The notes beneath the pieces are model-generated. The model made no database searches and was not told the DNA's origin. It saw only the letters and a program-made list of their open reading frames with translations. Position numbers and translations under genes: made by a program. From positions 1 through 64,000 of the IMG/VR virus record IMGVR_UViG_3300046002_005110: a DNA stretch of 64,000 nucleotides; one strand, given 5' to 3'. Position 1 is the first letter of the stretch. Every line of letters begins with the position of its first letter. The DNA comes from a virus. Positions 3,001 to 44,154 of the stretch are shown here, piece by piece.

Positions 3001-3518
3001 TAAAGTCCATTAATATTACATTCTAATGTGCGTGCTCCAAAAGCAATATTAAAATTACCAGTTGAATTACTTCTCAATACTCCATAAGATCCAATAGCTA
3101 TATTTGATTTACCAATGGTATTATTCTGTAATGCCAAATAACCAATACCAATGTTACCACATCCAGTTGTATTACAGCTTAGTGCACCGTGTCCAATAGC
3201 TACGTTAGTATTACCAATATTACATCTAAGTGCTTCATATCCAAGAGCAATATTATCTGAACCTGTTGTATTAAATAATAATGATGACCATCCAACGGCA
3301 ATATTATCATGACCAATAGTATTATTACCTAAAGATGCATATCCAATTGATGTGTTATTATATCCAGTTGTAGTAAGCGCAGATGAACCACATCCAACAG
3401 CAAAATTACCACTTCCAGTAGTTACAGATGATAATGCATCTGTTCCTATAGAATAGTTGTTACATACACCACCGTTTATGTTTGGTAATACAATATTACC
3501 ACAGATTTTAATTGCCAT
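1..3518 (-). CDS. Collagen-like fibre protein, 3' end runs off the window (>=1172 aa)
   Basis: Not in the ORF track, consistent with no stop before the window edge. ATG at 3518 follows an AAGGA SD. Translates [22 protein letters not shown], then ~18-aa NTTGxxNxAIGxxAL repeats (trimeric beta-roll/YadA-like), two CER(L/I)KVDNxGLY modules and long [12 protein letters not shown] collagen tracts. Positions 3-50 read [16 protein letters not shown] in the same frame. Confidence 0.85.
470..1320 (-). repeat. Tandem ~36-nt coding repeat ([12 protein letters not shown]) forming a collagen tract
   Basis: About 20 near-identical units of ccttgaat(a/t)ccactagcaccagtggcaccaat(c/t)tc. Confidence 0.9.
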
Positions 3519-3572
3519 TTTCGTTTCCTTTTGGGTACTAGGCCATCATGTTTAAAACATGATTTATCACTG

Positions 3573-3580
3573 TATTTATC
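3573..3580 (-). promoter_or_regulatory. Late promoter GATAAATA (T4 TATAAATA variant)
   Basis: Motif upstream of the 3518 ATG; the same motif precedes most structural genes in the window. Confidence 0.7.
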
Positions 3581-3594
3581 AGTAGACAATAATA

Positions 3595-3620
3595 ATAATA
3601 GCCGAATTCTCGGCTATTAT
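3595..3620 (-). terminator. Probable intrinsic terminator
   Basis: Perfect 11-bp stem ATAATAGCCGA/TCGGCTATTAT with a 4-nt loop, U-rich tail on the minus strand, downstream of 3734..4105. Confidence 0.6.
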
Positions 3621-7712: not shown

Positions 7713-7720
7713 TATTTATC
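7713..7720 (-). promoter_or_regulatory. Late promoter GATAAATA, 4 nt before ATG
   Basis: GATAAATA-caag-ATG(7708), no SD. Confidence 0.65.
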
Positions 7721-7726
7721 ATTTAA

Positions 7727-12696: not shown

Positions 12697-12743
12697 GATA
12701 GTATCCTATATTATACTGTATTTATCATTTTCTACCATATTTG

Positions 12744-13543: not shown

Positions 13544-13559
13544 ATGAAGCGATCAGCGT

Positions 13560-13587
13560 AAAAAAGGGACCCGAAGGTCCCTTTTTT
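13560..13587. terminator. Bidirectional intrinsic terminator between the MCP and HNH genes
   Basis: AAAAAA-GGGACC-CGAA-GGTCCC-TTTTTT, with a UUCG loop on the minus strand. Confidence 0.92.
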
Positions 13588-13606
13588 ATTATCAATACCA
13601 ATAAAA

Positions 13607-19542: not shown

Positions 19543-19572
19543 ATCTCGTTTTCAATGTCTAGTATTTATCTA

Positions 19573-21981
19573 TTAGTTTAGCTTTGCTTCTAAAAACTTC
19601 TTTTGATTTTCCATACTAGTATCAGATAAATCTATCAACGTATCCATTTTTTCAAATAAATTATTAAACATTTCAGTAATTTTATTAGATGAATTAGTCA
19701 TCATTGATCCACTACCCAATGATGTTTTGCTTACACTTGACCCATCACCAATCTTTGATACAGATTCATCTCCGTGTAATTCTGCCAAATAACCACTTTC
19801 AGGTCCACTGAAAATACCACCTGTTCTTGCAGTTAAAGATCCAAGTTCATATCTTCCAGCACTAAAATGCATTGCATCAGATTTATTTGGCCAATCAAGA
19901 CCCCATCCTAATCCCATTGATTTAGCTGCTTGTCTTGTTCCCTCTGGCATGTCAGTTATTCTTTGAGATCCCATTGGATTTTCAGCAGGATTTATATCGA
20001 TTGCAGCGCCTCTAGAGTGATAACTGGGTGTGTTAGTTCCTGCTATATTTCTATCAGCATACCCACCTAAACTTTTTATCTTATATCCCGAAGCATCAAA
20101 CCAATCAATTAATCCTTGAAAGTTTTTAGCAAATTCAGTTGCAACTGATGTACTTTGTCCGGATTTACTTCTAATAGTCGATAATTTTACTCCTCCCGCT
20201 TCACCTGCTGATTTTGGTTCTTCGCCAGCTCCAGGTAATCTTGCACGAGTGGCATTTTCACCACCGGACACTGATGAAGGTGCAAATACACCAACTCCAG
20301 CATCTTTTTCCGCCTGTATTCTTTTAGCAGTTGCGATTGCTAATTGTTTTTGAGCCTCTTCTAGATTCTTTTTTGCTAGATACACATCACCAGACATAAC
20401 ACCGAGCTTAGTTGTGATAGAATCTACTAATGATCCTCTTATACCTCGATTTTTTCCAGTTTCACCAGATTCAGCATCTTTTAATTTTTTTCTTGCCTCA
20501 GATTCTTTTTCTATTGCCTGTCTTTCAGTCTTTTTTGCCGCCAAATGAGCAGGTAAATCTTCGCCGGCCATTTCATATAATTTTTCAGTTACAACCTCCA
20601 AACCGGTTGCCATGTGTTTCATTATTCCAGTTACAAGTTCACTACTGGTCGACATTTGTTCTATGTCTCTTCCTGCCTGTTCTAAAGCCTGTTTGGTATC
20701 AGCTAATTTTGCATTTTCACTATCTTTATCTGTTATTATCTGAGCTTGTTTTGCATTTTGTTCCTCCAACAATTTTTGAGTATCTTTATTTGCATGCATT
20801 TCAGCATTTGCTTGTTCAATAGAATACTTTCCACGAACAGTTGCATCACCATATCGTCTAGTTTCTTCAAGCGCCGCTTTTCTAGCAATTCCACTCAATC
20901 TATTAATTTCATTACGAGCGACACCAGCTTTCATTTCTCCATTTCTAAATTTTGTTAATATTGACGTTACCGCAGATGCTTGATCTCCAAAACTAGCCAA
21001 CATCTCGGCTGCTTTTGCTCTGCCTGCATCACCAGTAGTCAGATATTCTCTCATTCCTTCTTCTGTTAATTTTCCAGATTGAGCGGCTGTTAAATCAAGA
21101 AAAGTTTCATAAGTGTCTTTAAGTTTACCAGGAACATCAACCATACCTGCTCGCCAAGCCGCATCATTCATTCTGGCTTCTCTTGCGGTTTGTATATCTT
21201 TCTTACTTGCGCCAGTAATCTTACTAATAGTATCCAGTTCTTTTATATAGTTAACTGAACCTTGAATCATTTCATCTATGGTTTTCTTTTGTCCACGACC
21301 AGTACGCATCTGTTGATTAAGATAACTCAGTTGCATCTCAGAAAATTCTTCACTACTAATACCAAGTTTTTGAAAATCTCGTCTTACATCATAACTACTA
21401 ACTGATATTCTTTCAAATTCTTTTCTACCTTTTGTTGCTGATCCTGCAAATAATGCTAAATTTTTACTGTGTTTTGTTAAAATATTTTCGGACTGAGAAT
21501 AATTAAGTTGCATGGCACGTGCAGCATGTTTCATATCAGTAAAAGAAGTTACAACTCCACTATCACTTAATTTTTCGAAAGTTTGATATGATTTGTCAAA
21601 ACTCTCAACCATGAAAGAAGCAACTTCACCAACTCCTTCCGAAAATCCTTTGAGTGCTTTACCAACAAAAGGTAATCCACCCATAACTTTGCCTATGACT
21701 TTGAAACCCAATTTCATGGCATTTGTCAATGGTGCAAAACTTCCTGAGCTATTAGATAAACTTTTAGCAAATCCTGTTAGACCAGAAATAGATCCAGAAA
21801 TAGCCTTGGATAATTGCTTCTCAGATTCATTAAGTTCTTTTTCAATATCAGCACTGGTTTTTAACGAATTATCAAATATGTTATTACTTCTAGTAGTTCT
21901 TGCAATACTAGATTCAAAACTTTTTAGTTGTTTTGTGGTTTGTTCCAATTGATTTCGTAATTCATCTATTTCATTTGACAT
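19573..21981 (-). CDS. Tape-measure-like protein with M15-family peptidoglycan peptidase domain
   Basis: Long helical region; GGYADRNIAG...SYHSRGAAIDINP...WG...DAMHF; C-terminal GGIFSGPESGYLAELHGDE. Confidence 0.78.
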   Translation of the reverse strand: MSNEIDELRNQLEQTTKQLKSFESSIARTTRSNNIFDNSLKTSADIEKELNESEKQLSKAISGSISGLTGFAKSLSNSSGSFAPLTNAMKLGFKVIGKVMGGLPFVGKALKGFSEGVGEVASFMVESFDKSYQTFEKLSDSGVVTSFTDMKHAARAMQLNYSQSENILTKHSKNLALFAGSATKGRKEFERISVSSYDVRRDFQKLGISSEEFSEMQLSYLNQQMRTGRGQKKTIDEMIQGSVNYIKELDTISKITGASKKDIQTAREARMNDAAWRAGMVDVPGKLKDTYETFLDLTAAQSGKLTEEGMREYLTTGDAGRAKAAEMLASFGDQASAVTSILTKFRNGEMKAGVARNEINRLSGIARKAALEETRRYGDATVRGKYSIEQANAEMHANKDTQKLLEEQNAKQAQIITDKDSENAKLADTKQALEQAGRDIEQMSTSSELVTGIMKHMATGLEVVTEKLYEMAGEDLPAHLAAKKTERQAIEKESEARKKLKDAESGETGKNRGIRGSLVDSITTKLGVMSGDVYLAKKNLEEAQKQLAIATAKRIQAEKDAGVGVFAPSSVSGGENATRARLPGAGEEPKSAGEAGGVKLSTIRSKSGQSTSVATEFAKNFQGLIDWFDASGYKIKSLGGYADRNIAGTNTPSYHSRGAAIDINPAENPMGSQRITDMPEGTRQAAKSMGLGWGLDWPNKSDAMHFSAGRYELGSLTARTGGIFSGPESGYLAELHGDESVSKIGDGSSVSKTSLGSGSMMTNSSNKITEMFNNLFEKMDTLIDLSDTSMENQKKFLEAKLN

Positions 21982-21996
21982 GTTAATTATTCACTT

Positions 21997-24783
21997 TTAT
22001 GTTATTCCAATCATTGCAATTGTACGTTGATCGGAAATTTCACTTCTAGTCACACTAATCATTTTATCCACTTTTTTAGTCATCATAATTAAAAATTGAT
22101 TAATTATTTCATTAGAGAACGATTGATTATTAGTACCGTTAAATTGTAACTCGGCCGATCCAGAATTTACTGGAGTGACTATTTCATCACCATGTAATAT
22201 AGCCATGTATCCTGTACTTGGTCCACTGAGAATACCTCCAGTTCTTGTTTTTGGAAATGTGTTACCTGCAGAAACAGACTCTTGTACTGGTTGATTTTTT
22301 ATAAAAGATAAATCGGCAGTTTTATCAGATCCCCATTGTCCACTTTGCAAATTTCTCATGTAAGCGTCTTTTTTTCTGTCTTCAGTAATACTATTTGGAT
22401 TTCCAATACTACGAGCAACCTGAGTATATGTGTCAGCGTTTCCATATACTCTTTTATTGGCTGCCATTCCATCTTTCATCATCATAACGGCAATTTTAGC
22501 TGCAATTTTTGGATCATTAGCCAGATCAGGATTACCGACAAGATCAATTCCTAATAGTTTTCCATATTTTGCATAATTATCTTTAAAAGTTATTCCTATG
22601 AATCCACGACCACGATATTTATATCCATCTCCTGGACTAGTATTTCCATATCTACCGCCGTATATAAAATCAAAGAATTGCGCTGGATCTTTTTTTAATT
22701 TAGTAAGTTGATCATAAGACATTTTAGCAAACGCTGATCCTTGACCAAATGATTTTATAATATTTTCATTTGATGTATTTTCATAGGAAATTTCAGATTG
22801 TAATCTAAATCCAGATTCTCCTTCAGCGGTTGCGGCCATAGCGGCGCGAGTATTTGTGTCAGTTACTCCTAAATCATTCATTGCCTGTAATAGTAATTGT
22901 TGATTTTGACTTACACTAGTTGATTGAGATCCAGACGGCATTCCGCTGGTCGGAGTGCTTGATGTTCCTGCAGCATTAGGTGTTCCAGATGATGTTCCAG
23001 CAGTATTAGCAGATCCAGATGATGGGGGTGCACCAACTGTTTTTCCAAATCCTGCTTTTTGATCTTCTTCCTCTCTTATTTTTGATGCATTTTTTATTAG
23101 TTCTTCTTGTATCTTTATGTTTTCTCTATCAATCTGTATCTGTTCTTTAATATTTTTTAAGGCCCTTTCTTTATCAGAAATTAATTTTCTATTTTGTGGT
23201 GAATTAGGGTTTTTCTTAAGTTCTTCTAGTTCTTTTTCAAACTTGGCCTGTTTTGTTAAATCATTAGTAAGGTCTGCTTGAAACTTTAAGTTTTTATTAA
23301 TTGCAATACGTTCTTCTTTTCTTGCTGTCAAAAAAGCTGGAATTCCTTTATCACCAACTAAACCATATAATTTCTCAACTAAATATTCTATTCCACCAGC
23401 AACTTTATTCATTACTGTTGTCATCGTTTTACTACCAGTAGATAATTGATCAATATTTCTAGATGTTGCGTACAGTGATCTTCTAGTTCGTGCTAAATTT
23501 GCATCAGTGGTACCAGTTTCTGCTAAATCTTTTTTTCTTTTTTCATTTAGTTCTTCTTGATCTTTTAAAAGTTCAGCCTCTGATTTAAACACAGAATTTT
23601 GTGCCGCAATATATGATGCCCCAACAATATTACCATCGCCTATATATTTAACTGTATCTCTCGTAGATGATTCATAACGCTTAAGTGATTCTGTAACTTT
23701 TGCATAAAACGCATTTATGTCTCCTCCAGCTCTTAATTTTGATATTTCGGTCTCTACATCCATTCCGCCAGCTCTAAGAGCATATAATGAAGCCTGTTCT
23801 TTTTCACTAACTCCTGTTGCTTCACTGGCAATGGCATCTTGAATACCTTCTCCAAAAGCCGGAGAAAGAGCTTTAAGTCTAGGCAACAACATATCTATGT
23901 TGCCTCTTATTTTTACATCCAATGGAGCAATACCAGCCATGTATCTGGCATCTCTGGTTTGATCCATCATTTGTTCTTGAAGTTCTTTTCTAGTAACACC
24001 TGTTATCTTACTTAAGGTATCAAGTTTTTCTATATATTGTAAAGACCCAGTAGTAAGTTCTTTATCTGTTATTCTTGTTCCTAATGATAATTTTTCCTGT
24101 CTGGTGATATAATTTATTTGCATTTCAGCAAAATCTGCAGCACTAATTCCTATTTGTTGAAATGATTCTGCTACCGTTTTAGTTTCAAATGCTATATCCT
24201 GAAGACGCTTTCTTCCCTCACCTGCCGAACCTCCAAAAACTGCCAATTCTTTACTATATTTTGATAATACTTTATCAGTATCAGAAAATGTTAAGCCTAA
24301 AGTGTTAGCTGATACTTTTAAATCTTCAAACGTTGATATTACACCAGTATCAGCCAACTTTTCAAAATTACCATACGCTTTTGAAAATTGACCAATCATA
24401 AACTTAGTTATTTCGGATGCACCCTCAACTACGCCTCCAATAATATCACCTACATAAGGTATTGGAATTAGTTGAGCTGCACTACTAATTAGTTTTGCCG
24501 AAAGCATGATGGCTTGATTGATACTATCAAAACCCTCTTTACTACCACTAGCAGATGTTAGACCGACTGTTAAACGATACATATCCTTAATCGTCGATTC
24601 GGCCAATTCAATTGCTTCTTTTTTTATCGCCTGTTGTTTTTTTAATGACTCGATTGACTTTTTGTTGGCCAAATCGGCAATAGTCAGATTTTTTTCATCT
24701 AAAGATAATTGAGACGCAAAACTTCCGAAACCTGTATTAAGGTCATTAATTTCATCCGAAGTTCCTAAATTATTATCAGCCAT
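21997..24783 (-). CDS. Tape-measure-like protein with GH19 chitinase/lysozyme-like domain
   Basis: Helical region paralogous to 19573..21981; GESGF...E, YGGRYGN...GDGYKYRGRGFIGITFKDNY; C-terminal GGILSGPSTGYMAILHGDE. Confidence 0.8.
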   Translation of the reverse strand: MADNNLGTSDEINDLNTGFGSFASQLSLDEKNLTIADLANKKSIESLKKQQAIKKEAIELAESTIKDMYRLTVGLTSASGSKEGFDSINQAIMLSAKLISSAAQLIPIPYVGDIIGGVVEGASEITKFMIGQFSKAYGNFEKLADTGVISTFEDLKVSANTLGLTFSDTDKVLSKYSKELAVFGGSAGEGRKRLQDIAFETKTVAESFQQIGISAADFAEMQINYITRQEKLSLGTRITDKELTTGSLQYIEKLDTLSKITGVTRKELQEQMMDQTRDARYMAGIAPLDVKIRGNIDMLLPRLKALSPAFGEGIQDAIASEATGVSEKEQASLYALRAGGMDVETEISKLRAGGDINAFYAKVTESLKRYESSTRDTVKYIGDGNIVGASYIAAQNSVFKSEAELLKDQEELNEKRKKDLAETGTTDANLARTRRSLYATSRNIDQLSTGSKTMTTVMNKVAGGIEYLVEKLYGLVGDKGIPAFLTARKEERIAINKNLKFQADLTNDLTKQAKFEKELEELKKNPNSPQNRKLISDKERALKNIKEQIQIDRENIKIQEELIKNASKIREEEDQKAGFGKTVGAPPSSGSANTAGTSSGTPNAAGTSSTPTSGMPSGSQSTSVSQNQQLLLQAMNDLGVTDTNTRAAMAATAEGESGFRLQSEISYENTSNENIIKSFGQGSAFAKMSYDQLTKLKKDPAQFFDFIYGGRYGNTSPGDGYKYRGRGFIGITFKDNYAKYGKLLGIDLVGNPDLANDPKIAAKIAVMMMKDGMAANKRVYGNADTYTQVARSIGNPNSITEDRKKDAYMRNLQSGQWGSDKTADLSFIKNQPVQESVSAGNTFPKTRTGGILSGPSTGYMAILHGDEIVTPVNSGSAELQFNGTNNQSFSNEIINQFLIMMTKKVDKMISVTRSEISDQRTIAMIGIT

Positions 24784-24791
24784 TTTTTCTC

Positions 24792-24829
24792 ACTAAATAG
24801 TGAAGACAGTCCACTTACTATTATTTAGC
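24792..24829. promoter_or_regulatory. Pair of face-to-face late promoters
   Basis: ACTAAATA on + (24792-24799) and GCTAAATA on - (24822-24829). Confidence 0.6.
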
Positions 24830-24862
24830 CTATTATTTTTAGCACTTACAAGGAAATCAATT

Positions 24863-25690
24863 ATGTCAGATCAAAACCCATTAAAACAGTATTTTCGTAG
24901 ACCAAGTATCTATTTCAAACTTCCTAGTATGGGAAAATTTTATTCATCTGGAATTGTCAATATTCCAGAAAACGGTGAATTGCCAGTTTATCCAATGACT
25001 GCCGTAGATGAAATGACCGTTAGAACTCCAGACGGATTATTCAACGGTGCAGCAGTTGTTGATTTGATCAAAAGTTGCGTACCAAATATTATTGATCCAT
25101 GGAAATTAAATAATATTGATTTGGATGCTACTATTATTGCTATTAAAGCCGCGGCCGGAGATGGAACACTGGCAATTTCATCACAATGTCCGTCATGTAG
25201 TGAAGAAACAGAATACAATATTAACTTAATGCCAATATTAGCTAATATGAAAAATGTTGATTATGATTCTGTTATGAAAGTTAGAGATTTAGTAATAAAA
25301 TTCAGACCACTAACATATATAGAAACAAATCAAAATGGATTAGATCAGTTTAATATTCAAAAAACATTGGCCACTCTTGAAGATTATCAAGATGATGAAC
25401 AAAAAAGTCAAGTTATGACTAATACTTTAAAACGATTAGGTGATTTAGTTGTTAGTATTATTGCATCAACTATTGAATCAATATCTACACCAGAATCAGT
25501 AGTAACAGATAAAAATTACATTATTGAGTTTTTAAATAATTGTGATAAAAATACAAATAATGCCATTAAAGATCGTAGTATACAATTACGTGAACAAAAT
25601 GAATTGGATCCTATTGATATTAAATGTCCTAGCTGTGCACATGAATACAAACAAAAAATTGTATTGAACGTCACTGATTTTTTCGAATAA
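24863..25690 (+). CDS. gp26: Baseplate hub assembly protein (gp26-like) / tail assembly chaperone
   Basis: NPLKQYFRRP, YPMTAVDE, two CPSC motifs, ends DFFE. Start moved to ATG 24863 after an AAGGA SD. Confidence 0.8.
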   Translation: MSDQNPLKQYFRRPSIYFKLPSMGKFYSSGIVNIPENGELPVYPMTAVDEMTVRTPDGLFNGAAVVDLIKSCVPNIIDPWKLNNIDLDATIIAIKAAAGDGTLAISSQCPSCSEETEYNINLMPILANMKNVDYDSVMKVRDLVIKFRPLTYIETNQNGLDQFNIQKTLATLEDYQDDEQKSQVMTNTLKRLGDLVVSIIASTIESISTPESVVTDKNYIIEFLNNCDKNTNNAIKDRSIQLREQNELDPIDIKCPSCAHEYKQKIVLNVTDFFE

Positions 25691-25726
25691 GGCTTCTTCA
25701 TCTCAATCCGGATGAGATCAAGAAGC
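25678..25726 (+). promoter_or_regulatory. Candidate -1 programmed ribosomal frameshift signal
   Basis: T TTT TTC heptamer (25678-25684), 7-nt spacer, hairpin GCTTCTT-c-ATCTCA/TGAGAT-c-AAGAAGC (25692-25726). Confidence 0.72.
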
Positions 25727-25737
25727 TGACAGATGAC

Positions 25738-25914
25738 ATGGAAAAAGAAAGAATGAATATTCCGTTTAATGCTCAAAAACTAGCTTGGTTTATGAGAGGA
25801 GGAATTGATTTCAATGACATAATGAACATGAGTCATGCAGAAATTGACAATATTAATAAAATCATTGATGAACATATGGAGACTACTAAGAAAACCAAAT
25901 TACCTTTCTTCTAA
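25738..25914 (+). CDS. gp51-like small ORF, probably the -1 frameshift extension of the gp26-like gene
   Basis: 58 aa, below the ORF track cutoff: MEKERMNIPFNAQKLAWFMRGGIDFNDIMNMSHAEIDNINKIIDEHMETTKKTKLPFF. Frame is open back to the slippery site at 25678. Confidence 0.75.
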   Translation: MEKERMNIPFNAQKLAWFMRGGIDFNDIMNMSHAEIDNINKIIDEHMETTKKTKLPFF

Positions 25915-25920
25915 TATTAA

Positions 25921-26410
25921 TAGATGAACTACGTTCATCTGCCAGTGACCTATCGGTACACTGGCATTTTTATATCTTGAGATTATATATGTGAAAAGAT
26001 GTTTTGTGTCACTAAAAGCGAGTGATAACGAGCGATGTGACACAATACGGGTTGTTGAGCGTAGCGATACAACCCATTACTTAGATATGCATATAAGTAA
26101 AAACGTTTAAACTCACTGAATAAAGTACAATCACCCCCCTCTTTTTCTTCTATTAAACCAGATATTTTCTCTGGGGGAAGAACGTTCGCCGAAGCACCGA
26201 TAAAACCCATAACTATTTGTCATTGATCTGTTGACGCAGTAAAATTCCTTCCGAGAGGATGGTTACGTTTAGAGACTAGTTGCGCTTAGTATTGTCCGCG
26301 CTTTGGTCTTACTCCACAGACAGTGGTCGGATTGTCTGTAACGTTTCTAGTTAGATTAGACAGGTAATTGTTTGACCTGTGGGCTACATGATGTTTCATG
26401 TGCCTTGCTC
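25921..26410. other. Hairpin-dense non-coding block (candidate origin or structured ncRNA)
   Basis: At least nine inverted repeats in ~490 nt between convergent operons; no credible ORF. Confidence 0.55.
25940..25972 (+). terminator. Probable intrinsic terminator after the gp26/gp51-like genes
   Basis: TGCCAGTG-ACC-tatc-GGT-a-CACTGGCA followed by TTTTT. Confidence 0.55.
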
Positions 26411-26423
26411 TGTTTAGTGTAGT

Positions 26424-27020
26424 TTAGATTGTGTTTAAAGTGTTGTTAGACTTGGTGTCAGTTGAGTATTTTGTAGATTGTTGATTAGATGAGAGTAGTT
26501 TGACCAATGATCCATATCTCTGAAAAAATGGTTCAAACGAGTATATATTCCAAGCACCATGTACTCTAGTTGAATAAGTTACATGATTGAGATCCATCCA
26601 CAAACCAGTTTGTTGTTGCTGATGATGTAGAATAGATGTCTTGACTTGTACTGCTACATAGCGACCTTTACGATTAAACTTCATTAATAAGATATTGAAG
26701 TCACCAGGATCACTAGCGGTCATCAATTGATCTATCCACGTTTCCAATTGCTTAGATTCGTCAAATAGTTGATGAAATTGAAAATCAGCATAAAACTTAC
26801 ATTCACAATTAAACAATGGAAAACTTTGACCAGGAATAATATCCCCTTTAAAGTTTCTAATTTGTCCCTCATGTAATATTTGTTTACGATGACTATTAGT
26901 ACCACCAGTATAAGCACCAGAACCAGGTGCTCTCATGAAATTTTCTCCATATAACTCTGATAGAAATTTGGAAACTTCACGTTCAAACCCACTTCCTTTG
27001 TTTTTACTTTTACTTGGCAT
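26424..27020 (-). CDS. PD-(D/E)XK Holliday junction resolvase-like (Hjc-like) nuclease
   Basis: SKNKGSGFERE, GDII, ECK motifs; ATG 5 nt after GATAAGTA (27026-27033). Confidence 0.78.
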   Translation of the reverse strand: MPSKSKNKGSGFEREVSKFLSELYGENFMRAPGSGAYTGGTNSHRKQILHEGQIRNFKGDIIPGQSFPLFNCECKFYADFQFHQLFDESKQLETWIDQLMTASDPGDFNILLMKFNRKGRYVAVQVKTSILHHQQQQTGLWMDLNHVTYSTRVHGAWNIYSFEPFFQRYGSLVKLLSSNQQSTKYSTDTKSNNTLNTI

Positions 27021-27057
27021 GGTAATACTTATCTCTTGATTGTTAAATTTAAAAATT

Positions 27058-27297
27058 TTATGTCCAGTCAGTTATAAACTGATCTTTGACTTCTACATTG
27101 GGAAATAACCAACGTGATACAAAATCAGTTTGGTGTTCTGCCGTACAATTATGATCAGTCAACCATGATTCAATATCTTTCCAATTTGGTCCAACATGAA
27201 CAATGTTGACGATTAATTCATTATCAGTATTAAAATTTATAACATATAAATTTCGTGATAACTTACTTATTTTAATTTTTTCATAATTTATTTTCAT
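27058..27297 (-). CDS. Hypothetical protein
   Basis: 79 aa, ATGA overlap with the gp46 stop. Confidence 0.6.
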   Translation of the reverse strand: MKINYEKIKISKLSRNLYVINFNTDNELIVNIVHVGPNWKDIESWLTDHNCTAEHQTDFVSRWLFPNVEVKDQFITDWT

Positions 27298-29381
27298 ACC
27301 TGAGTCTCCATGGTAGTTTCATATGATGTGAATCCGCCCTCTTTAATAACTTTTAGAACACTGGATACACGATTTGTTAGTTCATCTCTGTGTGAGACAA
27401 GCCATACTGATTTGTTACGTCTACGTGACATATCTTTTAGTAGAGCAATACTATTTTCAACTCCAATAGTATCTAAACCATTATCAATCAACTCATCAAC
27501 AAATAATACATTGATAGGACTATATAGTGATTCATATACATCTCTAAATGAAAAAGATAGCCCAAGGATCAGTCTATTACGCTCACCACGACTTAGATTA
27601 TCAAAGTCTAGCTCACGACCTAGCTCAGTGATTTCAACTGTTAAATCATTCTGAAATACAACTGTGTGTGGTAACCCCATGGCATCCAAATAGAAAGACA
27701 GACGACTGTTCAAATAAGTTAAATTTTGTTCAATAATCTTTTTACGAACGAAAGATTTTTTGTTTGTCAACAAATCTAACAAGTATTCTTGATGTTGCAT
27801 GACTCTTGTTAGTTGATTGATATGATCAAATGATACAGTTTGAATGGCTTCACGTTCCATTTCGGCGATTTGATCTATATATGGATCAGTTTCATCATGT
27901 TTATTGGCAATTTGATCCAATAATGAACTAACTCTAGATGAATGTTTAATTGCCTGATCTTCTGTATCATAATGAGTTACAGGTAACTCACCACATACAA
28001 TCTCGTCAGCACTAATATCAATTATCTGTAGATCGTATGGGTCTTGTTCCTGACGTTTGTTCTCAATTTCTATTTGTAAATTCAATACAGTATAACCATG
28101 TTTAATGGCATCACTTTCATTCTTATAATGTGTTACTGGCGTAATATTTATAACAATCACCGAATCATTAAGTAATTCAAGTTGACTGTTAAGATCAAAT
28201 ATTCTGACTAACGATAAATCCAATGATTCATTCTTTAATTTTAAGACTGATTCATGATTATGATCATGAAAATCTTGTCCACATGCATAACATTTGTTTT
28301 CTTTTAGAGTTTTTATTTCATTTTCTATCTTCTCAGAGTTTTTGGTTTCTTTATCTAGTTCAAGTTTAACTCTAACAATATCTTTTTTTATAGTATTCTG
28401 ATCAACAACTTGTTGATTGTATACGGCTAAGTCTTTATGAGCCTGCAATTCAGCATCAATATTAATTGAATTGAGTTTCTCAAGTTTTTCACTCAATGAT
28501 TTGATATCATTGGATCGTGATTGTTTCCAACTTGTTTGTCTAGCGACTAAACTATCATAACGATTTTTCTTTTCTAGACAATCATTATAAATGGATAGGT
28601 CTTTGTGTGACTTGAGTTCTAGATTAATGTCAATCTTACTCAACTCATCATATTCGTTAACTAGTTTAGTTAAATCTTCATCATGTTTTGTTTTCCATAA
28701 ACGTTGACGACGTTTGAGATTCTCAATCTGTTCACCAATACGTTTATTGGCTTCTTCAAGCGCACGTATACGATACTCTTCCTGTTGAATATCATCTTTG
28801 GTCTGTTTGTTCAGTATCTTAATGGCATCAGCTTTTTCAGATAAGATAGTAACACCCAATAACTGTTCAATGATAACACGTTGATCATTGGCTTTAAGTG
28901 ATAGAAATGGTTCGTTGTAAGTATTCAGACCAACAATGTGTCTGAACATATCACTACTCATGTGTAAGACCTTTTCAATAGCGTCCTGAGTTTCACGACT
29001 GTCACCTTGACTGTCATTGGTCTCTTCACTAGCCATTTCTTGATCATTTACATAAAATTTCAAAAATGTAGGTTTACGTCCACGTTCAATTCGGTATTCA
29101 ATATCATCTACTGAGAATGATAGTGTTACAACCATGGCTTTACCATTGGTTCTATTTATAAGATTGTCTTTTTTGATGTTGTTGATACCACCACCAAAAA
29201 GAGCATAAGATAATCCTTGCAAAATACTAGTTTTACCGGTACCATTTTTAGCCCCATCACCACCTAAATCTAGATTTTCACCTAGAATTAACGTTAGGTC
29301 TTGATTGTTGAAATCGACTGTTTGACTAACAGCGCCAATAGATAGAAAGTTCTTAAGAGTTAAAATACCAAGTGTAATCAT
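27294..29381 (-). CDS. gp46: Recombination endonuclease ATPase subunit (gp46, Rad50/SbcC-like)
   Basis: KNFLS, Walker A NGTGKT, CYAC zinc hook, LSRGE signature, FVDE Walker B, VSH. Confidence 0.95.
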   Translation of the reverse strand: MITLGILTLKNFLSIGAVSQTVDFNNQDLTLILGENLDLGGDGAKNGTGKTSILQGLSYALFGGGINNIKKDNLINRTNGKAMVVTLSFSVDDIEYRIERGRKPTFLKFYVNDQEMASEETNDSQGDSRETQDAIEKVLHMSSDMFRHIVGLNTYNEPFLSLKANDQRVIIEQLLGVTILSEKADAIKILNKQTKDDIQQEEYRIRALEEANKRIGEQIENLKRRQRLWKTKHDEDLTKLVNEYDELSKIDINLELKSHKDLSIYNDCLEKKNRYDSLVARQTSWKQSRSNDIKSLSEKLEKLNSINIDAELQAHKDLAVYNQQVVDQNTIKKDIVRVKLELDKETKNSEKIENEIKTLKENKCYACGQDFHDHNHESVLKLKNESLDLSLVRIFDLNSQLELLNDSVIVINITPVTHYKNESDAIKHGYTVLNLQIEIENKRQEQDPYDLQIIDISADEIVCGELPVTHYDTEDQAIKHSSRVSSLLDQIANKHDETDPYIDQIAEMEREAIQTVSFDHINQLTRVMQHQEYLLDLLTNKKSFVRKKIIEQNLTYLNSRLSFYLDAMGLPHTVVFQNDLTVEITELGRELDFDNLSRGERNRLILGLSFSFRDVYESLYSPINVLFVDELIDNGLDTIGVENSIALLKDMSRRRNKSVWLVSHRDELTNRVSSVLKVIKEGGFTSYETTMETQV

Positions 29382-30394
29382 ATGTTCCTATAAATATCCA
29401 ACAATAACTTCTTGTCAAATGTTCCTTGTTCCAAACTTTCAATTTGTGTTTGAATAATTGTATCCACGCTTTCAAATTGAGTATCTGAATTATCTGGATT
29501 ATTGTCTGTGAAATCTCGTTTGATAGGAATCAATGTAAGTTCTCTAAGATGATGTTCTGGCATGAGTTTTTCACGAATGAAACTTGCCTCTTCAAACGAG
29601 ATATCAATATCTAGATTGATTCTAACATAACTATCAGACAATAACAAGCCACTTGGATCATCCAATACATCACTTAAATTATATACACGATACTTAGGGG
29701 CATTAGGCCAACCAAAATACATGGGTTCTTTGTCCCATTCTAATACCATCATGCCACGTTTATCATCACCAGCATCGGCATAGTTATGAGGGAAGGCATT
29801 TCCAATATAGGTAATGTTATTTTTCTTTTGACGTTTGTGAAAATGACCACTAAATACGGCTTCATATCCATTTAAATGTTCACTTTGAATTTCTTTATAA
29901 TCTGGCATTTGAATCATGGCATTCATAAAGAAATTTGGAAGTTCTAGATGAGAGAATACATATTTCCCTTTCATCTTTTTAAGACGTTTCCATTCATCTC
30001 CAACGATCCACGGAATGATAGTTACATCTCCCTGTGTGAACCATTCATCTATTATAATGACATTTGGAAGATGTTTTGCCCATTCTACTGAATGAGTATC
30101 TCTTTTATCTCTATAAAACATATCGTGATTACCCACGATAAAGTATATTTTATCAAATGCCGCACTTAACTTTTCAAGACCTCTAAGACTAAACTGTAGA
30201 GTTTGAATATTAATAGCGGCACGATTATGATGCCAATCTCCTAGAAAGAAACAAGTTTCACAGTTTTGTTTTTTAGCAGTTTCAATAAACCAATCAACGA
30301 AATTTGTACAATCCGTATTATGTTGTATTGAATTGTTTTTCAAACCCCAATGAATATCAGTGAATGTTGCTGCTTTTTTGAATAAATTTGTCAT
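29378..30394 (-). CDS. gp47: Recombination endonuclease nuclease subunit (gp47, Mre11/SbcD-like)
   Basis: DIHWG, LGDWHH, GNHD, SGHFH metallophosphoesterase motifs. Confidence 0.95.
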   Translation of the reverse strand: MTNLFKKAATFTDIHWGLKNNSIQHNTDCTNFVDWFIETAKKQNCETCFFLGDWHHNRAAINIQTLQFSLRGLEKLSAAFDKIYFIVGNHDMFYRDKRDTHSVEWAKHLPNVIIIDEWFTQGDVTIIPWIVGDEWKRLKKMKGKYVFSHLELPNFFMNAMIQMPDYKEIQSEHLNGYEAVFSGHFHKRQKKNNITYIGNAFPHNYADAGDDKRGMMVLEWDKEPMYFGWPNAPKYRVYNLSDVLDDPSGLLLSDSYVRINLDIDISFEEASFIREKLMPEHHLRELTLIPIKRDFTDNNPDNSDTQFESVDTIIQTQIESLEQGTFDKKLLLDIYRNI

Positions 30395-30400
30395 CTAGTG

Positions 30401-30429
30401 ATTATACAGTATGAAAATTGATTAATCAA
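30401..30429 (-). promoter_or_regulatory. Sigma70-like promoter of gp47, leaderless geometry
   Basis: TTGATT-17 nt-TATAAT-cactag-ATG. Confidence 0.65.
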
Positions 30430-30443
30430 TATTTTCGGAGTGA

Positions 30444-31385
30444 TTAACCAATATTACGTCTTTTTTCTCTTTCGCTATCTAAACTATGTTGACGAGTGAA
30501 ACTGGGATTTAACCCATTAGATTCCAAAATATCATCTCTAATGTTTTGAACACGTTTTTCTGTATTAAGAACACGACAGAAACTATTGGTAATAGCGGCT
30601 GTATAGTAGGCAAATGGATTTTGTGATTTAGCTTCATTGAAACGTAAACCAACGTATGTCAATTGTAAAATGGCTGCACCTCTCATCTCATCCACGTAAG
30701 TATAACCACGCCAATTGAATCTTAATGAATACTTTTCACATAGTTTCAAGTACATGTTAGCCAACTTATTTGTAATTTGACCATGATCTTTTGAAAAATC
30801 TCCAGTTTTCAAATCACCAACCCAATGACTTTTACCAACACAAACTAGTGAATTTTTATCATTAATTTTGAAATGTTGAAATGGAGGGAAGTTTAAACGA
30901 ACGTGAACCATATTATCTAGACCCATTTCTTTTGCTAATCCTTTGTCTTCCAAATCTTCAAATAGAATATCTTCTGTTGGTTCAAAGTCAAAGATTTCTT
31001 TTGCTGATTTTGGTTTGGAATTCTTTCTTGGTTGTTTTGGAGCAACTGGTATATGATCCCAAGTCATGACTCTAAAAACCAAATCTGTATTTTTAATGGT
31101 TTCTGGGTCAATTTTTTCTGTTTTGATTTTTACACCATCTGGACCAACTACTTGACTCAATCTAGCCGCTCGATTTTCTTTAGCTTTTTGAATAGTTTCT
31201 GGTTTACTGGTATATTCCAAACTACGTTCTAGATTATTATTATCTTCATAATCTACAATAAAGTCATATTGATGATCATCTAGAGTTTCAAATTTACAAT
31301 ATGAATTTTTACTTGCATGTATTTCTTTTAAAATATCTTTATTGTTTAGATAGTTCTTTTTTGCTGGAATTTTTGTTGTGATCAT
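30444..31385 (-). CDS. gp55: Late-transcription sigma factor (gp55-like)
   Basis: NYLNNKDILKEI, NWRGYTYVDEM, FNEAKSQNPFAYYTAAI; adjacent to gp47/gp46 as in T4-like phages. Confidence 0.82.
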   Translation of the reverse strand: MITTKIPAKKNYLNNKDILKEIHASKNSYCKFETLDDHQYDFIVDYEDNNNLERSLEYTSKPETIQKAKENRAARLSQVVGPDGVKIKTEKIDPETIKNTDLVFRVMTWDHIPVAPKQPRKNSKPKSAKEIFDFEPTEDILFEDLEDKGLAKEMGLDNMVHVRLNFPPFQHFKINDKNSLVCVGKSHWVGDLKTGDFSKDHGQITNKLANMYLKLCEKYSLRFNWRGYTYVDEMRGAAILQLTYVGLRFNEAKSQNPFAYYTAAITNSFCRVLNTEKRVQNIRDDILESNGLNPSFTRQHSLDSEREKRRNIG

Positions 31386-31410
31386 ATGCTCTTTAGGTTA
31401 ATATGTTGCA

Positions 31411-31439
31411 ATTATACAACACAAGGTTGTGTAAGTCAA
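31411..31439 (-). promoter_or_regulatory. Sigma70-like promoter of the gp55-like gene
   Basis: TTGACT-17 nt-TATAAT. Confidence 0.75.
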
Positions 31440-31481
31440 GTGAATTGGAAGATTGGTGAAAAAATACGACTATTATTTTGC

Positions 31482-31489
31482 GCTAAATA
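31482..31489 (+). promoter_or_regulatory. Late promoter GCTAAATA heading the baseplate operon
   Basis: Upstream of a GGAG SD and ATG 31533. Confidence 0.65.
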
Positions 31490-31532
31490 GTAGTAGAGGT
31501 ATTCTATTTAGGGTAATACCGGAGACAACTAT

Positions 31533-44118: not shown

Positions 44119-44126
44119 GATAAATA
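44119..44126 (+). promoter_or_regulatory. Late promoter GATAAATA
   Basis: 28 nt upstream of ATG 44155. Confidence 0.65.
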
Positions 44127-44154
44127 GTAGATACAGTAATGGATAATATAAAAA

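What the first reader, a model, noticed from the sequence alone, without database searches (positions are those of the whole stretch)
25921..26410. Hairpin-dense 0.5 kb non-coding block between convergent operons
Seen stems: AGATGAAC/GTTCATCT (25922-25940), TGCCAGTG/CACTGGCA (25940-25966), TTGTGTCAC/GTGACACAA (26004-26045), GGGTTGT/ACAACCC (26049-26075), TTACTTA/TAAGTAA (26077-26100), nested TTCTTC..CCAGA/TCTGG..GAAGAA (26145-26182), ACAGACAGT/ATTGTCTGT (26316-26339), ACAGGT/ACCTGT (26360-26380), GGC.ACATGA/TCATGTGCC (26382-26404). This is the largest gap in a tightly packed window and is visibly richer in CG than its flanks. Inference: either a large structured ncRNA or a replication/packaging signal next to the resolvase-gp46-gp47 genes.
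Basis: partly seen in the sequence, partly recalled or inferred. Interest (0 to 1): 0.7.

Follow-up and report, generated by a model that had tools for sequence, protein, structure and literature searches.

The report
Phage structured RNA plus convergent terminators
The 0.5-kb gene-free block of this uncultured freshwater jumbo T4-like phage holds two back-to-back sets of terminator hairpins and a conserved folded RNA of about 250-290 bases of unknown function that matches no catalogued RNA family, in a slot where related phages carry other large RNAs.

Summary
All nine stems lie at the stated coordinates, the block is the largest gap in the window, it is GC-richer than its flanks, and it folds better than shuffled sequence.

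The block is composite. The left third (25915-26100) is a convergent termination zone:
- hp1 and hp2+T5 end the hub/p58 operon, and their stems covary in about 20 lineages.
- hp3 and hp4 carry GCGNAGC-type caps. On the opposite strand they are followed by a U-rich tract.

The right part (core 26131-26380, possibly to 26423) is a structured RNA on the resolvase (minus) strand.
- Diverged homologues occur in at least 7 other lineages in the same slot.
- A 25-pair structure is 97% paired and has 6 doubly-changed pairs; 0 of 500 shuffles reach its covariation score.
- All 24 wobble cells are G-U on the minus strand only.

It is not a detectable member of Polynucleobacter-1 (RF01718), of the twin-box core next to that motif in relatives, of the 'C/D-type' RNA that fills 49 of 56 related gaps, or of a marine RNA.

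A strand-blind hint of expression comes from contigs in two RNA libraries. GC skew gives no support for an origin.

Function is unknown. Earlier notes of this scan flagged the same block in sister genomes.

The parts
25922..25940 (+). hp1: 8-bp hairpin with a UAC triloop, 8 nt after the p58 stop codon. It is the first element of the hub/p58 3' module.
   Evidence: The same element follows p58 in about 20 lineages with different stems (AGAUGAAC, GUUGUAC, AGACUUGC, AGAUUAGC, GAUGUGC and others). The 19 nt are identical in L025, L032 and L111.
25940..25972 (+). hp2 (GCCAGUG/CACUGGC) followed by a T5 run: intrinsic terminator of the hub/p58 operon. On the minus strand its tip reads CC-GAUA-GG.
   Evidence: L007 and L223 keep the stem through compensatory changes (GCCUGA/UCAGGC, GCCAGA/UCUGGC), and the T-run is retained. 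Equivalent hairpin + U-tract elements occur in lineages C to G.
25989..26045 (-). hp3 (9-bp stem, 24-nt loop containing GCGAG..CGAGCG) plus a downstream U-rich tract on the minus strand (AAAACAUCUUUUC): candidate terminator of the resolvase-strand transcript.
   Evidence: The stem covaries in L007, L223, L316 and L266. Minus-strand U-runs follow it in L223 (UUCUUUUUAU), L316 (AUCUUUUUAC) and L007 (AGUUUUCUC), but not in L266 or L319.
26049..26075 (.). hp4: 7-bp stem capped by GAGCGUAGCGA, a GCGNAGC mini-hairpin motif read on the + strand.
   Evidence: the motif occurs only at this locus; the outermost pair changes G-C to C-G in L223, and the stem is GGUUAU/AUAACC in L007. The motif class is described in PMC13037366.
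26077..26100 (.). hp5: 7-bp AT-rich hairpin; lineage-specific spacer element.
   Evidence: It is present in the window and in L002 but not in L223.
26131..26380 (-). Conserved core of the 'A-type' structured RNA, read 5'->3' on the minus strand.
- P0: 26360-26380.
- Pa: 26312-26343.
- GGAG(U/A)AAG.
- Pb: 26306-26309 with 26273-26276.
- Pc: 26298-26301 with 26282-26285; loop GGACAAUACUAA.
- UAAAC.
- Pd': 26264-26267 with 26235-26238.
- Pd: 26257-26260 with 26245-26248; loop CUCGGAA.
- Pe: 26232-26235 with 26219-26222; loop ACAGAUCAA.
- Invariant UAUCGGUGC-UUCG-GCGAACGUUCU: 26175-26200.
- Pg: C-rich arm 26173-26179 with G-rich arm 26133-26139, enclosing CCAGA/UCUGG (26158-26174).
   Evidence: Homologues: L223, L266/L303, L274/L307, L313, L328, L316 and L319, all lying between hub-p58 and the resolvase gene. 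Covariation and strand. Nucleotide identity to L002 is 95-99% here, against 92-96% in the resolvase gene and 71-80% in hub/p58.
26382..26404 (-). Hairpin directly after the resolvase stop codon. It is lineage-specific and not part of the conserved core.
   Evidence: It is present, with a fully different stem, in L223. There is no obvious counterpart in L316, L313 or L266 (by eye).
26424..27020 (-). PDDEXK_15 ('resolvase') gene, whose stop abuts the RNA. It is the last gene of the sigma-late/gp47/gp46 block on the minus strand.
   Evidence: Pfam PF24608, E 4e-29; PHROG 244.
24800..25914 (+). Baseplate-hub gene (PF12322) and the 58-aa ORF in its -1 frame. This is the convergent operon that ends at hp1/hp2.

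Best explanation
The block is the meeting point of two converging transcription units, and it carries an RNA gene.

(1) SHOWN. The hub/p58 operon (+ strand) ends at a conserved two-hairpin module: hp1, then hp2 followed by a T5 run.

(2) SHOWN. The rest of the block, from the resolvase stop leftwards, contains a conserved multi-helix RNA structure that is consistent only with the minus (resolvase) strand. The core is about 250 nt (26380->26131), or about 290 nt counted from the stop codon.

(3) INFERRED.
- The RNA is made as the 3' extension of the gp47-gp46-resolvase transcript. No terminator or conserved promoter lies between the stop codon and the RNA in this lineage.
- The transcript ends at hp4/hp3 and the U-rich tract at about 25990-26003, roughly 20 nt short of the opposing terminator.
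- The product is a stable folded RNA. Its invariant loops and junctions (AUCCGACCAC, GGACAAUACUAA, CUCGGAA, ACAGAUCAA, UAUCGGUGC-UUCG-GCGAACGUUCU) form a tertiary fold or bind a phage or host partner in trans. It is not merely an mRNA 3' cap.

(4) SHOWN. The slot between the recombination-nuclease genes and the hub operon is an RNA-gene slot in hundreds of related aquatic jumbo phages, filled by at least four mutually undetectable RNA types. The window carries the rarer 'A-type'. Its biochemical function is unknown.
For: Terminator module. hp2+T5 and hp1 recur with covarying stems in about 20 lineages.

Homologues of the RNA. nhmmer and BLAST find L223 (70% identity over 491 nt), L266, L274, L313, L328, L316 and L319. 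All lie in the same slot, although their resolvase is only 44-53% and their hub 43-66% identical to the window's.

Structure. On the MAFFT alignment A15 (7 sequences), a 25-pair structure gives:
- 97.1% of cells paired;
- 6 pairs and 17 cells changed on both sides;
- covariation score 0.320, against 0.169 in shuffles (0 of 500 reach it);
- slid controls at most 50% paired.
RNAalifold independently recovers Pa, Pc and Pd, with 6 compensatory pairs.

Strand.
- 24 cells are G-U on the minus strand, and none of the unpaired cells is A-C.
- A hand-curated set of 8 helices in 4 lineages gives 98 Watson-Crick, 17 G-U and 5 mismatches on the minus strand, against 98, 0 and 22 on the plus strand.
- The C-rich arm of Pg changes C->U three times in L223 and twice in L266, always opposite G.
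- A cUUCGg tetraloop reads on the minus strand.

Conservation. The block is 95-99% identical to L002, higher than the adjacent coding sequence.

Expression hint. Contigs of two metatranscriptome studies cover 26175-26450 and 26142-26402.

Slot concept.
- Polynucleobacter-1 (118.5 bits) sits at the same place in L027, and a motif screen (not cmscan) finds it in 17 further IMG/VR contigs.
- The C/D-type RNA fills 49 of 56 gaps and shows 13 compensatory pairs from two sequences.
- A marine RNA of about 450 nt shows 17 compensatory pairs.
Against: - No strand-specific or end-mapped RNA data exist. Logan contigs cannot show strand or ends, and DNA carry-over in the RNA libraries is possible.
- The + strand folds slightly better thermodynamically.
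- A few wobble pairs favour the + strand: the apical G-U of the 26316-26339 stem and one U-G in L223's stop-proximal hairpin.
- I picked the curated helices while reading the minus strand, which biases. One search uses an unfitted MAFFT alignment, but the structure was still mine.
- The 3' end at hp3 is weak. The U-tract is interrupted, and it is absent in L266 and L319.
- In L266, L313 and L274 there are 100-500 nt (repeats, perhaps a gene) between the resolvase gene and the RNA, so co-transcription is not universal.
- The trans-acting role is pure inference.
Confidence: 0.72

Rival explanations
1. Structured 3' UTR only. The folded region exists solely in cis, to block 3' exonucleases or to terminate or insulate the converging transcripts. 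It has no function as a separate RNA.
For: The RNA starts at the resolvase stop codon with no promoter between them. It ends in stable capped hairpins. Phage T4 intergenic regions are known for very stable C(UUCG)G hairpins (own knowledge, Tuerk et al. 1988, not checked here).
Against: Long invariant single-stranded motifs and 7-8 covarying helices kept across lineages whose flanking proteins are only about 45-55% identical are far more than end protection needs. Ordinary terminators elsewhere in this genome are single hairpins, for example 13559-13588. In L274 the RNA is separated from the resolvase gene by about 500 nt.
Confidence: 0.2
2. DNA-level element. hp3 and hp4 (with hp2 on the other strand) act as folded single-stranded DNA, as a priming or primosome-loading site or as the origin of an RNA-primed (R-loop) replication start. 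The adjacent RNA would be the primer transcript.
For: GCGNAGC and GCGNNAGC mini-hairpins occur at ssDNA-phage complementary-strand origins, at RSF1010 ssiA and at N4 hairpin promoters (PMC13037366). The motif is unique to this locus in the window and in all loci examined. Caps face opposite strands: hp2 reads CC-GAUA-GG on the minus strand, hp4 reads GC-GUA-GC on the plus strand. The stems are perfect Watson-Crick duplexes on both strands. The replication/recombination genes gp46 and gp47 lie next door.
Against: There is no skew inflection at the block; skew follows gene orientation and its minimum is at about 32-33 kb. No AT-rich unwinding element was seen. The genome is a 23%-complete fragment, so a whole-genome skew test is impossible. 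The hairpins sit exactly where convergent terminators are expected and carry U-tracts. The right-hand RNA shows RNA-type (G-U) constraints.
Confidence: 0.12
3. An independent small RNA on the + strand. It would be driven by the sigma70-like promoter TTGTCA-17-TAAAAT (26217-26245) and end at hairpin 26382-26404 with its U-rich tail, giving an RNA of about 160 nt convergent with the resolvase gene.
For: The promoter matches 10 of 12 positions. The + strand has the better z-score. The hairpin is followed by UUGCUCUGUUU.
Against: The -10 hexamer loses its invariant last T in L223 (TAAAAC) and in L266 (TAAAGC), and the -35 hexamer also drifts, while the overlapping sequence CGCAGUAAA stays conserved. 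Promoter-like sites of this quality are common here: 22 in 3 kb against 14.6 in shuffles. All wobble evidence points to the minus strand. RNA-library contigs run across the putative start site.
Confidence: 0.04
4. Guide or partner RNA of the adjacent nuclease, analogous to the omega RNA of TnpB/IscB, which lies at the 3' end of its nuclease gene.
For: The RNA lies immediately 3' of a small nuclease gene on the same strand. In the G-type relatives checked (3 of 4 upstream ORFs scanned), a GIY-YIG SegE-like gene occupies that position in front of Polynucleobacter-1.
Against: RNA type and nuclease type do not co-vary. The twin-box RNA follows either SegE (G lineage) or PDDEXK_15 (L014, L008). PDDEXK_15 is followed by A-type, C/D-type or twin-box RNAs. 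In the marine clade the RNA lies upstream of the nuclease gene. One Poly-1 locus has a non-GIY-YIG ORF upstream. No variable 'guide' end is visible.
Confidence: 0.04

Closest known systems
Polynucleobacter-1 RNA motif (Rfam RF01718; Weinberg et al. 2010, PMC2864571)
   Same: It occupies the same genomic slot, and the same strand relative to the nuclease gene, in related freshwater phages (L027 at 118.5 bits; 17 further IMG/VR contigs by a motif screen). It has no known function. It also starts directly after the stop codon of a small nuclease gene.
   Different: No similarity is detectable. cmscan gives nothing at E<=10 on the 1.1-kb region. An nhmmer profile of 15 phage Poly-1 sequences gives nothing. 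The helix order and the conserved motifs differ.
Uncatalogued 'twin-box' RNA core that follows Polynucleobacter-1 in G/E/F-type relatives
   Same: Same slot and same strand. It is multi-helix, with invariant single-stranded boxes, and it is followed by the same hp2/hp1 module with G-N(N)-A caps.
   Different: R2 scores 34 and 19.9 bits on L014 and L008, but 0.2 bits (E 2.5) on the window with filters off. The window has no co-varying twin boxes and no GGUACCGGACAACCGCC pseudoknot element.
'C/D-type' RNA of the closest relatives (model R3 built here; not in Rfam)
   Same: Same slot and strand, and similar size (about 340 nt). It shares short words (GGAGUAAG followed by a hairpin; UAAAC..UUAC) and the general layout of a 5' strand-hairpin-GGAG element.
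   Different: R3 (21 sequences, 220 positions) gives 175-192 bits on L034 and L032 but 1.8 bits (E 0.59) on the window. It gives nothing on L223, L266 or L274. The nhmmer profile is also negative.
Large structured phage/prophage RNAs of unknown function
   Same: Phage-borne, highly structured, conserved better than neighbouring genes, and without a known function.
   Different: The window's RNA is much smaller (about 250-290 nt against about 580-800 nt). There is no Rfam hit to those families, and the genomic context differs.
GCGNAGC / GCGNNAGC mini-hairpin DNA motifs at G4, St-1 and alpha3 origins, RSF1010 ssiA and N4 promoters (PMC13037366)
   Same: hp4 carries GCGTAGC at its tip. Relatives carry GCGAAGC or GCGCAGC. 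On the other strand, hp2 tips read CCGAUAGG, CCGUUAGG or GCGUUAGC.
   Different: Here the motif caps long stems inside a dsDNA phage's convergent terminator zone. No ssDNA stage or primase link is shown.

Membership tests
Polynucleobacter-1 (RF01718) | Covariance-model score at or above Rfam's gathering score of 37 bits | tested here: not met
   No hit at the gathering score in the 64-kb window. No hit at E<=10 in 25600-26700 with permissive filters. The positive control L027 scores 118.5 bits.
Polynucleobacter-1 (RF01718) | Position directly 3' of the small nuclease gene, facing the hub/p58 operon (the context seen in phage copies) | tested here: met
   The slot and the relative strand are the same. 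This is a positional analogy only.
   The best score is 0.2 bits, E 2.5, with filters off. E/F-lineage controls score 34 and 19.9 bits. The nhmmer profile is negative.
   The best score is 1.8 bits, E 0.59. Controls score 175-192 bits.
   The only window hit lies elsewhere (6898-6994, 9.1 bits, E 9.7).
A-type slot RNA (defined here) | Sequence-profile match plus helices Pa, Pc, Pd and Pg with covariation, on the resolvase strand | tested here: met
   nhmmer E-values from 1e-50 to 1e-80 for L223, L266, L274, L313, L316, L319 and L328.
Intrinsic (rho-independent) terminator | GC-containing stem followed at once by a U-run on the transcribed strand | tested here: met
   hp2 has an 8-bp stem followed by TTTTT at 25967-25971 on the + strand, conserved in relatives. 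For hp3 on the minus strand the result is only inconclusive, because the U-tract is interrupted.
T4-type replication origin (promoter plus unwinding element, R-loop) | Conserved promoter, AT-rich DNA-unwinding element, skew inflection | tested here: not met
   The promoter hexamers are not conserved. The block is GC-richer than its flanks. The skew minimum is at about 32-33 kb and follows gene orientation. A whole-genome test is impossible on a 23%-complete contig.
ssDNA initiation signal with a GCGNAGC mini-hairpin | Mini-hairpin motif present; recognised by primase on ssDNA | tested here: inconclusive
   The motif is present (PMC13037366). Primase recognition cannot be tested with these tools.
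tRNA / tmRNA | ARAGORN detection | tested here: not met
   No genes are found in the window.

The most novel reading that the evidence does not exclude
The slot between the gp46/gp47-nuclease genes and the baseplate-hub operon would be a conserved 'RNA-gene socket' of a very large clade of aquatic jumbo T4-like phages. Unrelated-looking large RNAs (A-type, C/D-type, Polynucleobacter-1/twin-box, marine type) would be exchanged in it and perform one shared function, so far unknown. One candidate is an RNA-primed start of DNA replication that uses the GNA-capped DNA hairpins at its end. Another is an RNA that binds and neutralises a host factor. On that reading the window's A-type RNA is a previously undescribed solution to the same task.
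Probability: 0.2. Interest if true: 0.85.

Novelty: new variant of a known kind. Interest (0 to 1): 0.6.

Why it matters
Large structured RNAs of unknown function are rare. Historically they have pointed to new biochemistry.

This work gives:
- a testable secondary structure, a strand and boundaries for an RNA family absent from Rfam 15;
- evidence that the orphan Polynucleobacter-1 motif (catalogued in 2010, function unknown) belongs to a positional series of phage RNAs in one genomic slot;
- the observation that at least four mutually undetectable RNA types occupy that slot in hundreds of uncultured jumbo phages.

This turns 'what does Polynucleobacter-1 do?' into a comparative question: what do four different folds in one slot have in common? 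It also names concrete targets for structure probing, cryo-EM and genetics. The practical caveat is that no cultivated host-phage pair is known for this clade.

Tried and rejected
- Rfam at the gathering score on the window, and at E<=10 on the block: nothing relevant. Rfam on five other A-type loci: nothing.
- ARAGORN: no tRNA or tmRNA.
- blastn (distant mode) against 50,697 GenBank phage records: no match.
- BLAST of the right block against five whole related virus records: only the near-identical L004.
- Coding hypotheses. The 75-aa ORF is not conserved. tblastx against about 200 loci is empty.
- Covariance models R1 (marine core), R2 (twin-box core) and R3 (C/D type): no match to the block.
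- nhmmer profiles of Poly-1, the twin-box region and the C/D RNA: no match.
- My first idea that the words GAGCAAG and GGAGUAAG shared with L034 prove homology: rejected, because 7-8-mers shared by two 350-nt sequences are expected by chance.
- My first reading that the twin-box region of G-type relatives lies on the hub strand: revised after C-A/G-U checks, after earlier scan notes and after R2 hit E/F on the resolvase strand.
- A long-range closing helix 26108-26127/26405-26424 predicted by MFE: not supported, because changes in L002 and X22 break it without compensation.
- A kissing interaction between the hp2 and hp4 loops: no covariation in L007 or L223.
- A 14-nt exact scan of IMG/VR for a Poly-1 word returned mostly chance hits. 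Only 17 of the returned loci passed a second-motif check.
- Depth and coverage gaps in the Logan contigs (for example no RNA contig over 25757-26141, and DNA run X21 lacking 26010-26326) are not evidence.
- MAFFT could not align L266 and L274 through their insertions. They were therefore left out of A15 and scored helix by helix in a script.
Full report
**Context**

The window is part of an 80.9-kb IMG/VR contig, estimated 23% complete. Relatives reach 340-370 kb. The gene content is T4-like. On the minus strand lie a late sigma factor, gp47 (SbcD-like), gp46 (SbcC-like), a 79-aa ORF and a PDDEXK_15 'resolvase' (26424-27020). On the plus strand lie a baseplate-hub gene (24800-25690, PF12322) and a 58-aa ORF (25738-25914). 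The finding is the 509-nt gap between the two converging stop codons.

**Observation**

The gap is the largest in the window. Its GC is 0.397, against about 0.31-0.33 beside it. It folds far better than dinucleotide shuffles on both strands.

It is not coding. The one 75-aa ORF loses its start and its frame in 94%-identical relatives. No protein family matches. tblastx against about 200 related loci is empty.

**Left third (25915-26100): convergent terminators**

hp1 (25922-25940) and hp2 (25940-25966, followed by T5) come directly after p58.

The same two-hairpin module follows p58 in about 20 lineages whose hub proteins are only 30-65% identical. The stems are completely different but always complementary, and a U-tract lies on the hub strand. 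This is the hub/p58 terminator.

hp3 and hp4 are kept in L007, L223, L251, L266, L274, L316 and L319 with compensatory stem changes. Their loops carry GAGCG-N-AGCGA or GCGAG...CGAGCG. This motif is found nowhere else in the window or in any fetched locus.

The motif contains GCGNAGC, the very stable 'mini-hairpin' described for ssDNA-phage origins, RSF1010 ssiA and N4 promoters (PMC13037366).

On the minus strand, hp3 is followed by a U-rich tract in the window, L002, L223, L316 and L007. I read hp4/hp3 as the end of the resolvase-strand transcript. That is an inference. The tract is weak, and it is absent in L266 and L319.

**Right part: a structured RNA on the minus strand**

At first only relatives at 94% identity or more were available, and they offer almost no variation. 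Even so, the block was the best-conserved stretch of the neighbourhood: 95-99% identity, against 92-96% in the resolvase gene and 71-80% in hub/p58.

A profile search with an alignment of hub proteins brought 80 more loci. Among them L223 aligns to the whole block at 70% identity, and L266 and L274 align to most of it.

A 16-nt invariant word then found L313, L316, L319 and L328. All lie between hub-p58 and the resolvase gene.

Read on the minus strand, these sequences share this order:
- hairpin P0;
- AGAAACGUU;
- Pa, with loop AUCCGAC(C)AC;
- GGAG(U/A)AAG;
- Pb, enclosing Pc with its invariant loop GG(A/U)CAAUACUAA;
- UAAAC;
- Pd', enclosing Pd with loop CUCGGAA;
- ACUGCG;
- Pe, with loop ACAGAU(C/U)AA;
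- an invariant 24-nt stretch with a cUUCGg hairpin;
- Pg, a C-rich/G-rich helix that encloses a small hairpin.

Stems change while staying complementary:
- Pc is GCGC/GCGC, GCGU/GCGC, GUGG/CCAC, GAGU/GCUC or GAUC/GAUC.
- Pd is UCCU/AGGA, UCCUU/AGGGA, UCCC/GGGA, UCUCC/GGGGA, UUGC/GCAA or GAUG/CAUC.
- The inner Pg hairpin is CCAGA/UCUGG, CCAGU/ACUGG or GGUUG/CAACC.

On the unfitted MAFFT alignment A15 (7 sequences), RNAalifold recovers Pa, Pc and Pd with six compensatory pairs. My 25-pair structure gives the following:
- 97.1% of cells paired;
- 17 doubly-changed cells;
- covariation score 0.320, against 0.169 in shuffles (0 of 500 reach it);
- slid controls at most 50% paired.

**Strand**

In one search, 24 cells are G-U or U-G on the minus strand, and none of the five unpaired cells is A-C. 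On the plus strand only about 83% of cells would pair.

A helix-by-helix script on four lineages gives 98 Watson-Crick, 17 G-U and 5 mismatches on the minus strand, against 98, 0 and 22 on the plus strand.

The clearest case is Pg. Its G-run is fixed, while the opposite arm reads CUUCCCCC, CUUUCUCU or CUACCUU.

Two substitutions seen in relatives and in run contigs (26298 G>A, 26339 T>C) keep pairing only on the minus strand.

Against this, the plus strand has the lower MFE, and two isolated wobbles favour it. Because I chose the helices while reading the minus strand, one search is biased and less so.

The sigma70-like promoter on the plus strand (26217-26245) is not conserved in L223 or L266. 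This argues against a plus-strand sRNA.

**Expression**

Logan contigs of two metatranscriptome studies cover 26175-26450 (X22) and 26142-26402 (X24), at 95-96% identity. They also cover parts of the resolvase and gp46 genes. Contigs show neither strand nor ends, and DNA carry-over is possible, so this is only a hint.

**What it is not**

There is no Rfam family at any threshold, for the window or for five other members. The three covariance models built here gave these results:

| Model | Built from | Score on controls | Best score on the block |
|---|---|---|---|
| R1 | marine RNA core | 78-132 bits | no hit in the block |
| R2 | twin-box core of Poly-1-type relatives | 34 and 19.9 bits (L014, L008) | 0.2 bits |
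| R3 | C/D-type RNA | 175-192 bits (L034, L032) | 1.8 bits |

The corresponding nhmmer profiles are also negative.

**The slot**

The same interval carries other structured RNAs in relatives:
- Polynucleobacter-1 (RF01718) lies directly after a SegE-like GIY-YIG gene in L027. A motif screen finds it in 17 further IMG/VR contigs. SegE was confirmed for 3 of the 4 upstream ORFs scanned.
- It is followed by a conserved region of about 145 nt with two boxes that change in step and an H-type pseudoknot.
- A C/D-type RNA of about 340 nt fills 49 of 56 distinct gaps among the closest hub relatives.
- An RNA of about 450 nt in marine relatives lies between p58 and a co-directional resolvase gene.

RNA type does not track the type of the neighbouring nuclease. 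A nuclease-guide relationship is therefore unlikely.

**Origin hypothesis**

Cumulative GC skew follows gene orientation. Its minimum is at about 32-33 kb, with only a local bump over the two plus-strand genes at 25-27 kb. The contig is a fragment, so a genome-wide test is not possible. The GNA-capped hairpins keep a DNA-level role for hp2-hp4 open, at roughly 0.1.

**Earlier notes of this scan**
- The same block of about 290 nt was flagged on the minus strand in three sister genomes.
- Follow-ups on other genomes described Polynucleobacter-1 as the first third of a larger 'twin-box' RNA. I used that as a lead and checked it in part.
- The -1 frameshift note for hub/p58 was confirmed in passing.

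**Verdict**

The feature is real and composite. It consists of two convergent terminator modules and a new, well-supported structured RNA family on the resolvase strand. The RNA is the positional counterpart of Polynucleobacter-1 and of two uncatalogued RNAs. Its function is unknown.

Noticed in passing
window 25678-25727 and 25738-25914; loci L223-L302: The hub gene ends with the slippery heptamer T_TTT_TTC, 9 nt before its stop. A 7-nt spacer and a 13-14-bp hairpin follow. The 58-aa ORF is open in the -1 frame across the stop. In 59 of 59 distinct relatives the heptamer is identical and in the same place, p58 is always in the -1 frame, and the hairpin stems covary. This looks like a conserved -1 programmed frameshift that fuses hub to p58. 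Another first-reader note (e1-6082043) already covers it.
   Followed up: partly
L032:1518-1900, L034:3060-3425 and 49 further gaps (e.g. L294:3809-4027): A structured RNA of about 340 nt ('C/D-type') lies on the resolvase strand in 49 of 56 related gaps. It shows 13 compensatory pairs from two sequences and a clean 21-sequence alignment (A13). It has no Rfam hit.
   Followed up: partly
L027:2938-3291 and loci L104-L217: In phage contigs Polynucleobacter-1 lies directly after a gene of about 142 aa. That gene is SegE-like GIY-YIG in the 3 of 4 upstream ORFs that were scanned. On the same strand Poly-1 is followed by a conserved core of about 145 nt. The core has two boxes that change in step (ACUCGGAUGA / AUCUGGAUGA against ACUCAGAUAA / AUCUAGAUAA) and a GUUGU/ACAAC pseudoknot that covaries.
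   Followed up: partly
L010:3390-3880, L016, L018, L021, L041, L036: Marine relatives carry a structured RNA of about 450 nt between p58 and a co-directional resolvase gene. It shows 17 compensatory pairs and GAAA tetraloops on the gene strand. Just upstream of it lies a cluster of CTAATA repeats.
   Followed up: partly
window 27040-27300: The 79-aa ORF (27058-27297) between gp46 and the resolvase gene is absent from the otherwise 92-96%-identical L002 lineage. This is an indel of a small gene. DNA run X21 also has a contig that skips 26795-27321.
   Followed up: no
window 21500-31500 against L002: Identity to the sister lineage is mosaic: about 50-60% left of 24800, 71-80% in hub/p58, 95-99% from about 26000 to 26500, and a 56-72% island inside gp46 (27900-28600). 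One breakpoint falls at hp1/hp2, which suggests recombination at the terminator zone.
   Followed up: no
L266:2975-3075 and L274:4455-4560: Two direct repeats of about 35 nt (TAGATCGACCNCTTTATCTCG..GTTCGAAC) lie between the A-type RNA and the resolvase gene in the L266, L274, L313 and L319 lineages. Their role is unknown.
   Followed up: no
window, upstream of many minus- and plus-strand structural genes (e.g. 3560-3585, 7715-7725, 12700-12715, 19550-19560, 44120-44135): A recurrent motif GATAAATA(C/G), 10-30 nt before start codons, is probably the late promoter of this phage (compare T4 TATAAATA). Sigma70-like TTGAC(A/T)-17-TATAAT sites stand before 31385 and 12806. Neither motif occurs in the block.
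   Followed up: no
window 3483-3620: A second hairpin-rich intergenic stretch: two 8-bp hairpins with 3-nt loops (3483-3501, 3545-3563) and an 11-bp hairpin (3595-3620). It lies upstream of the large fibre gene, among late-promoter-like motifs.
   Followed up: no
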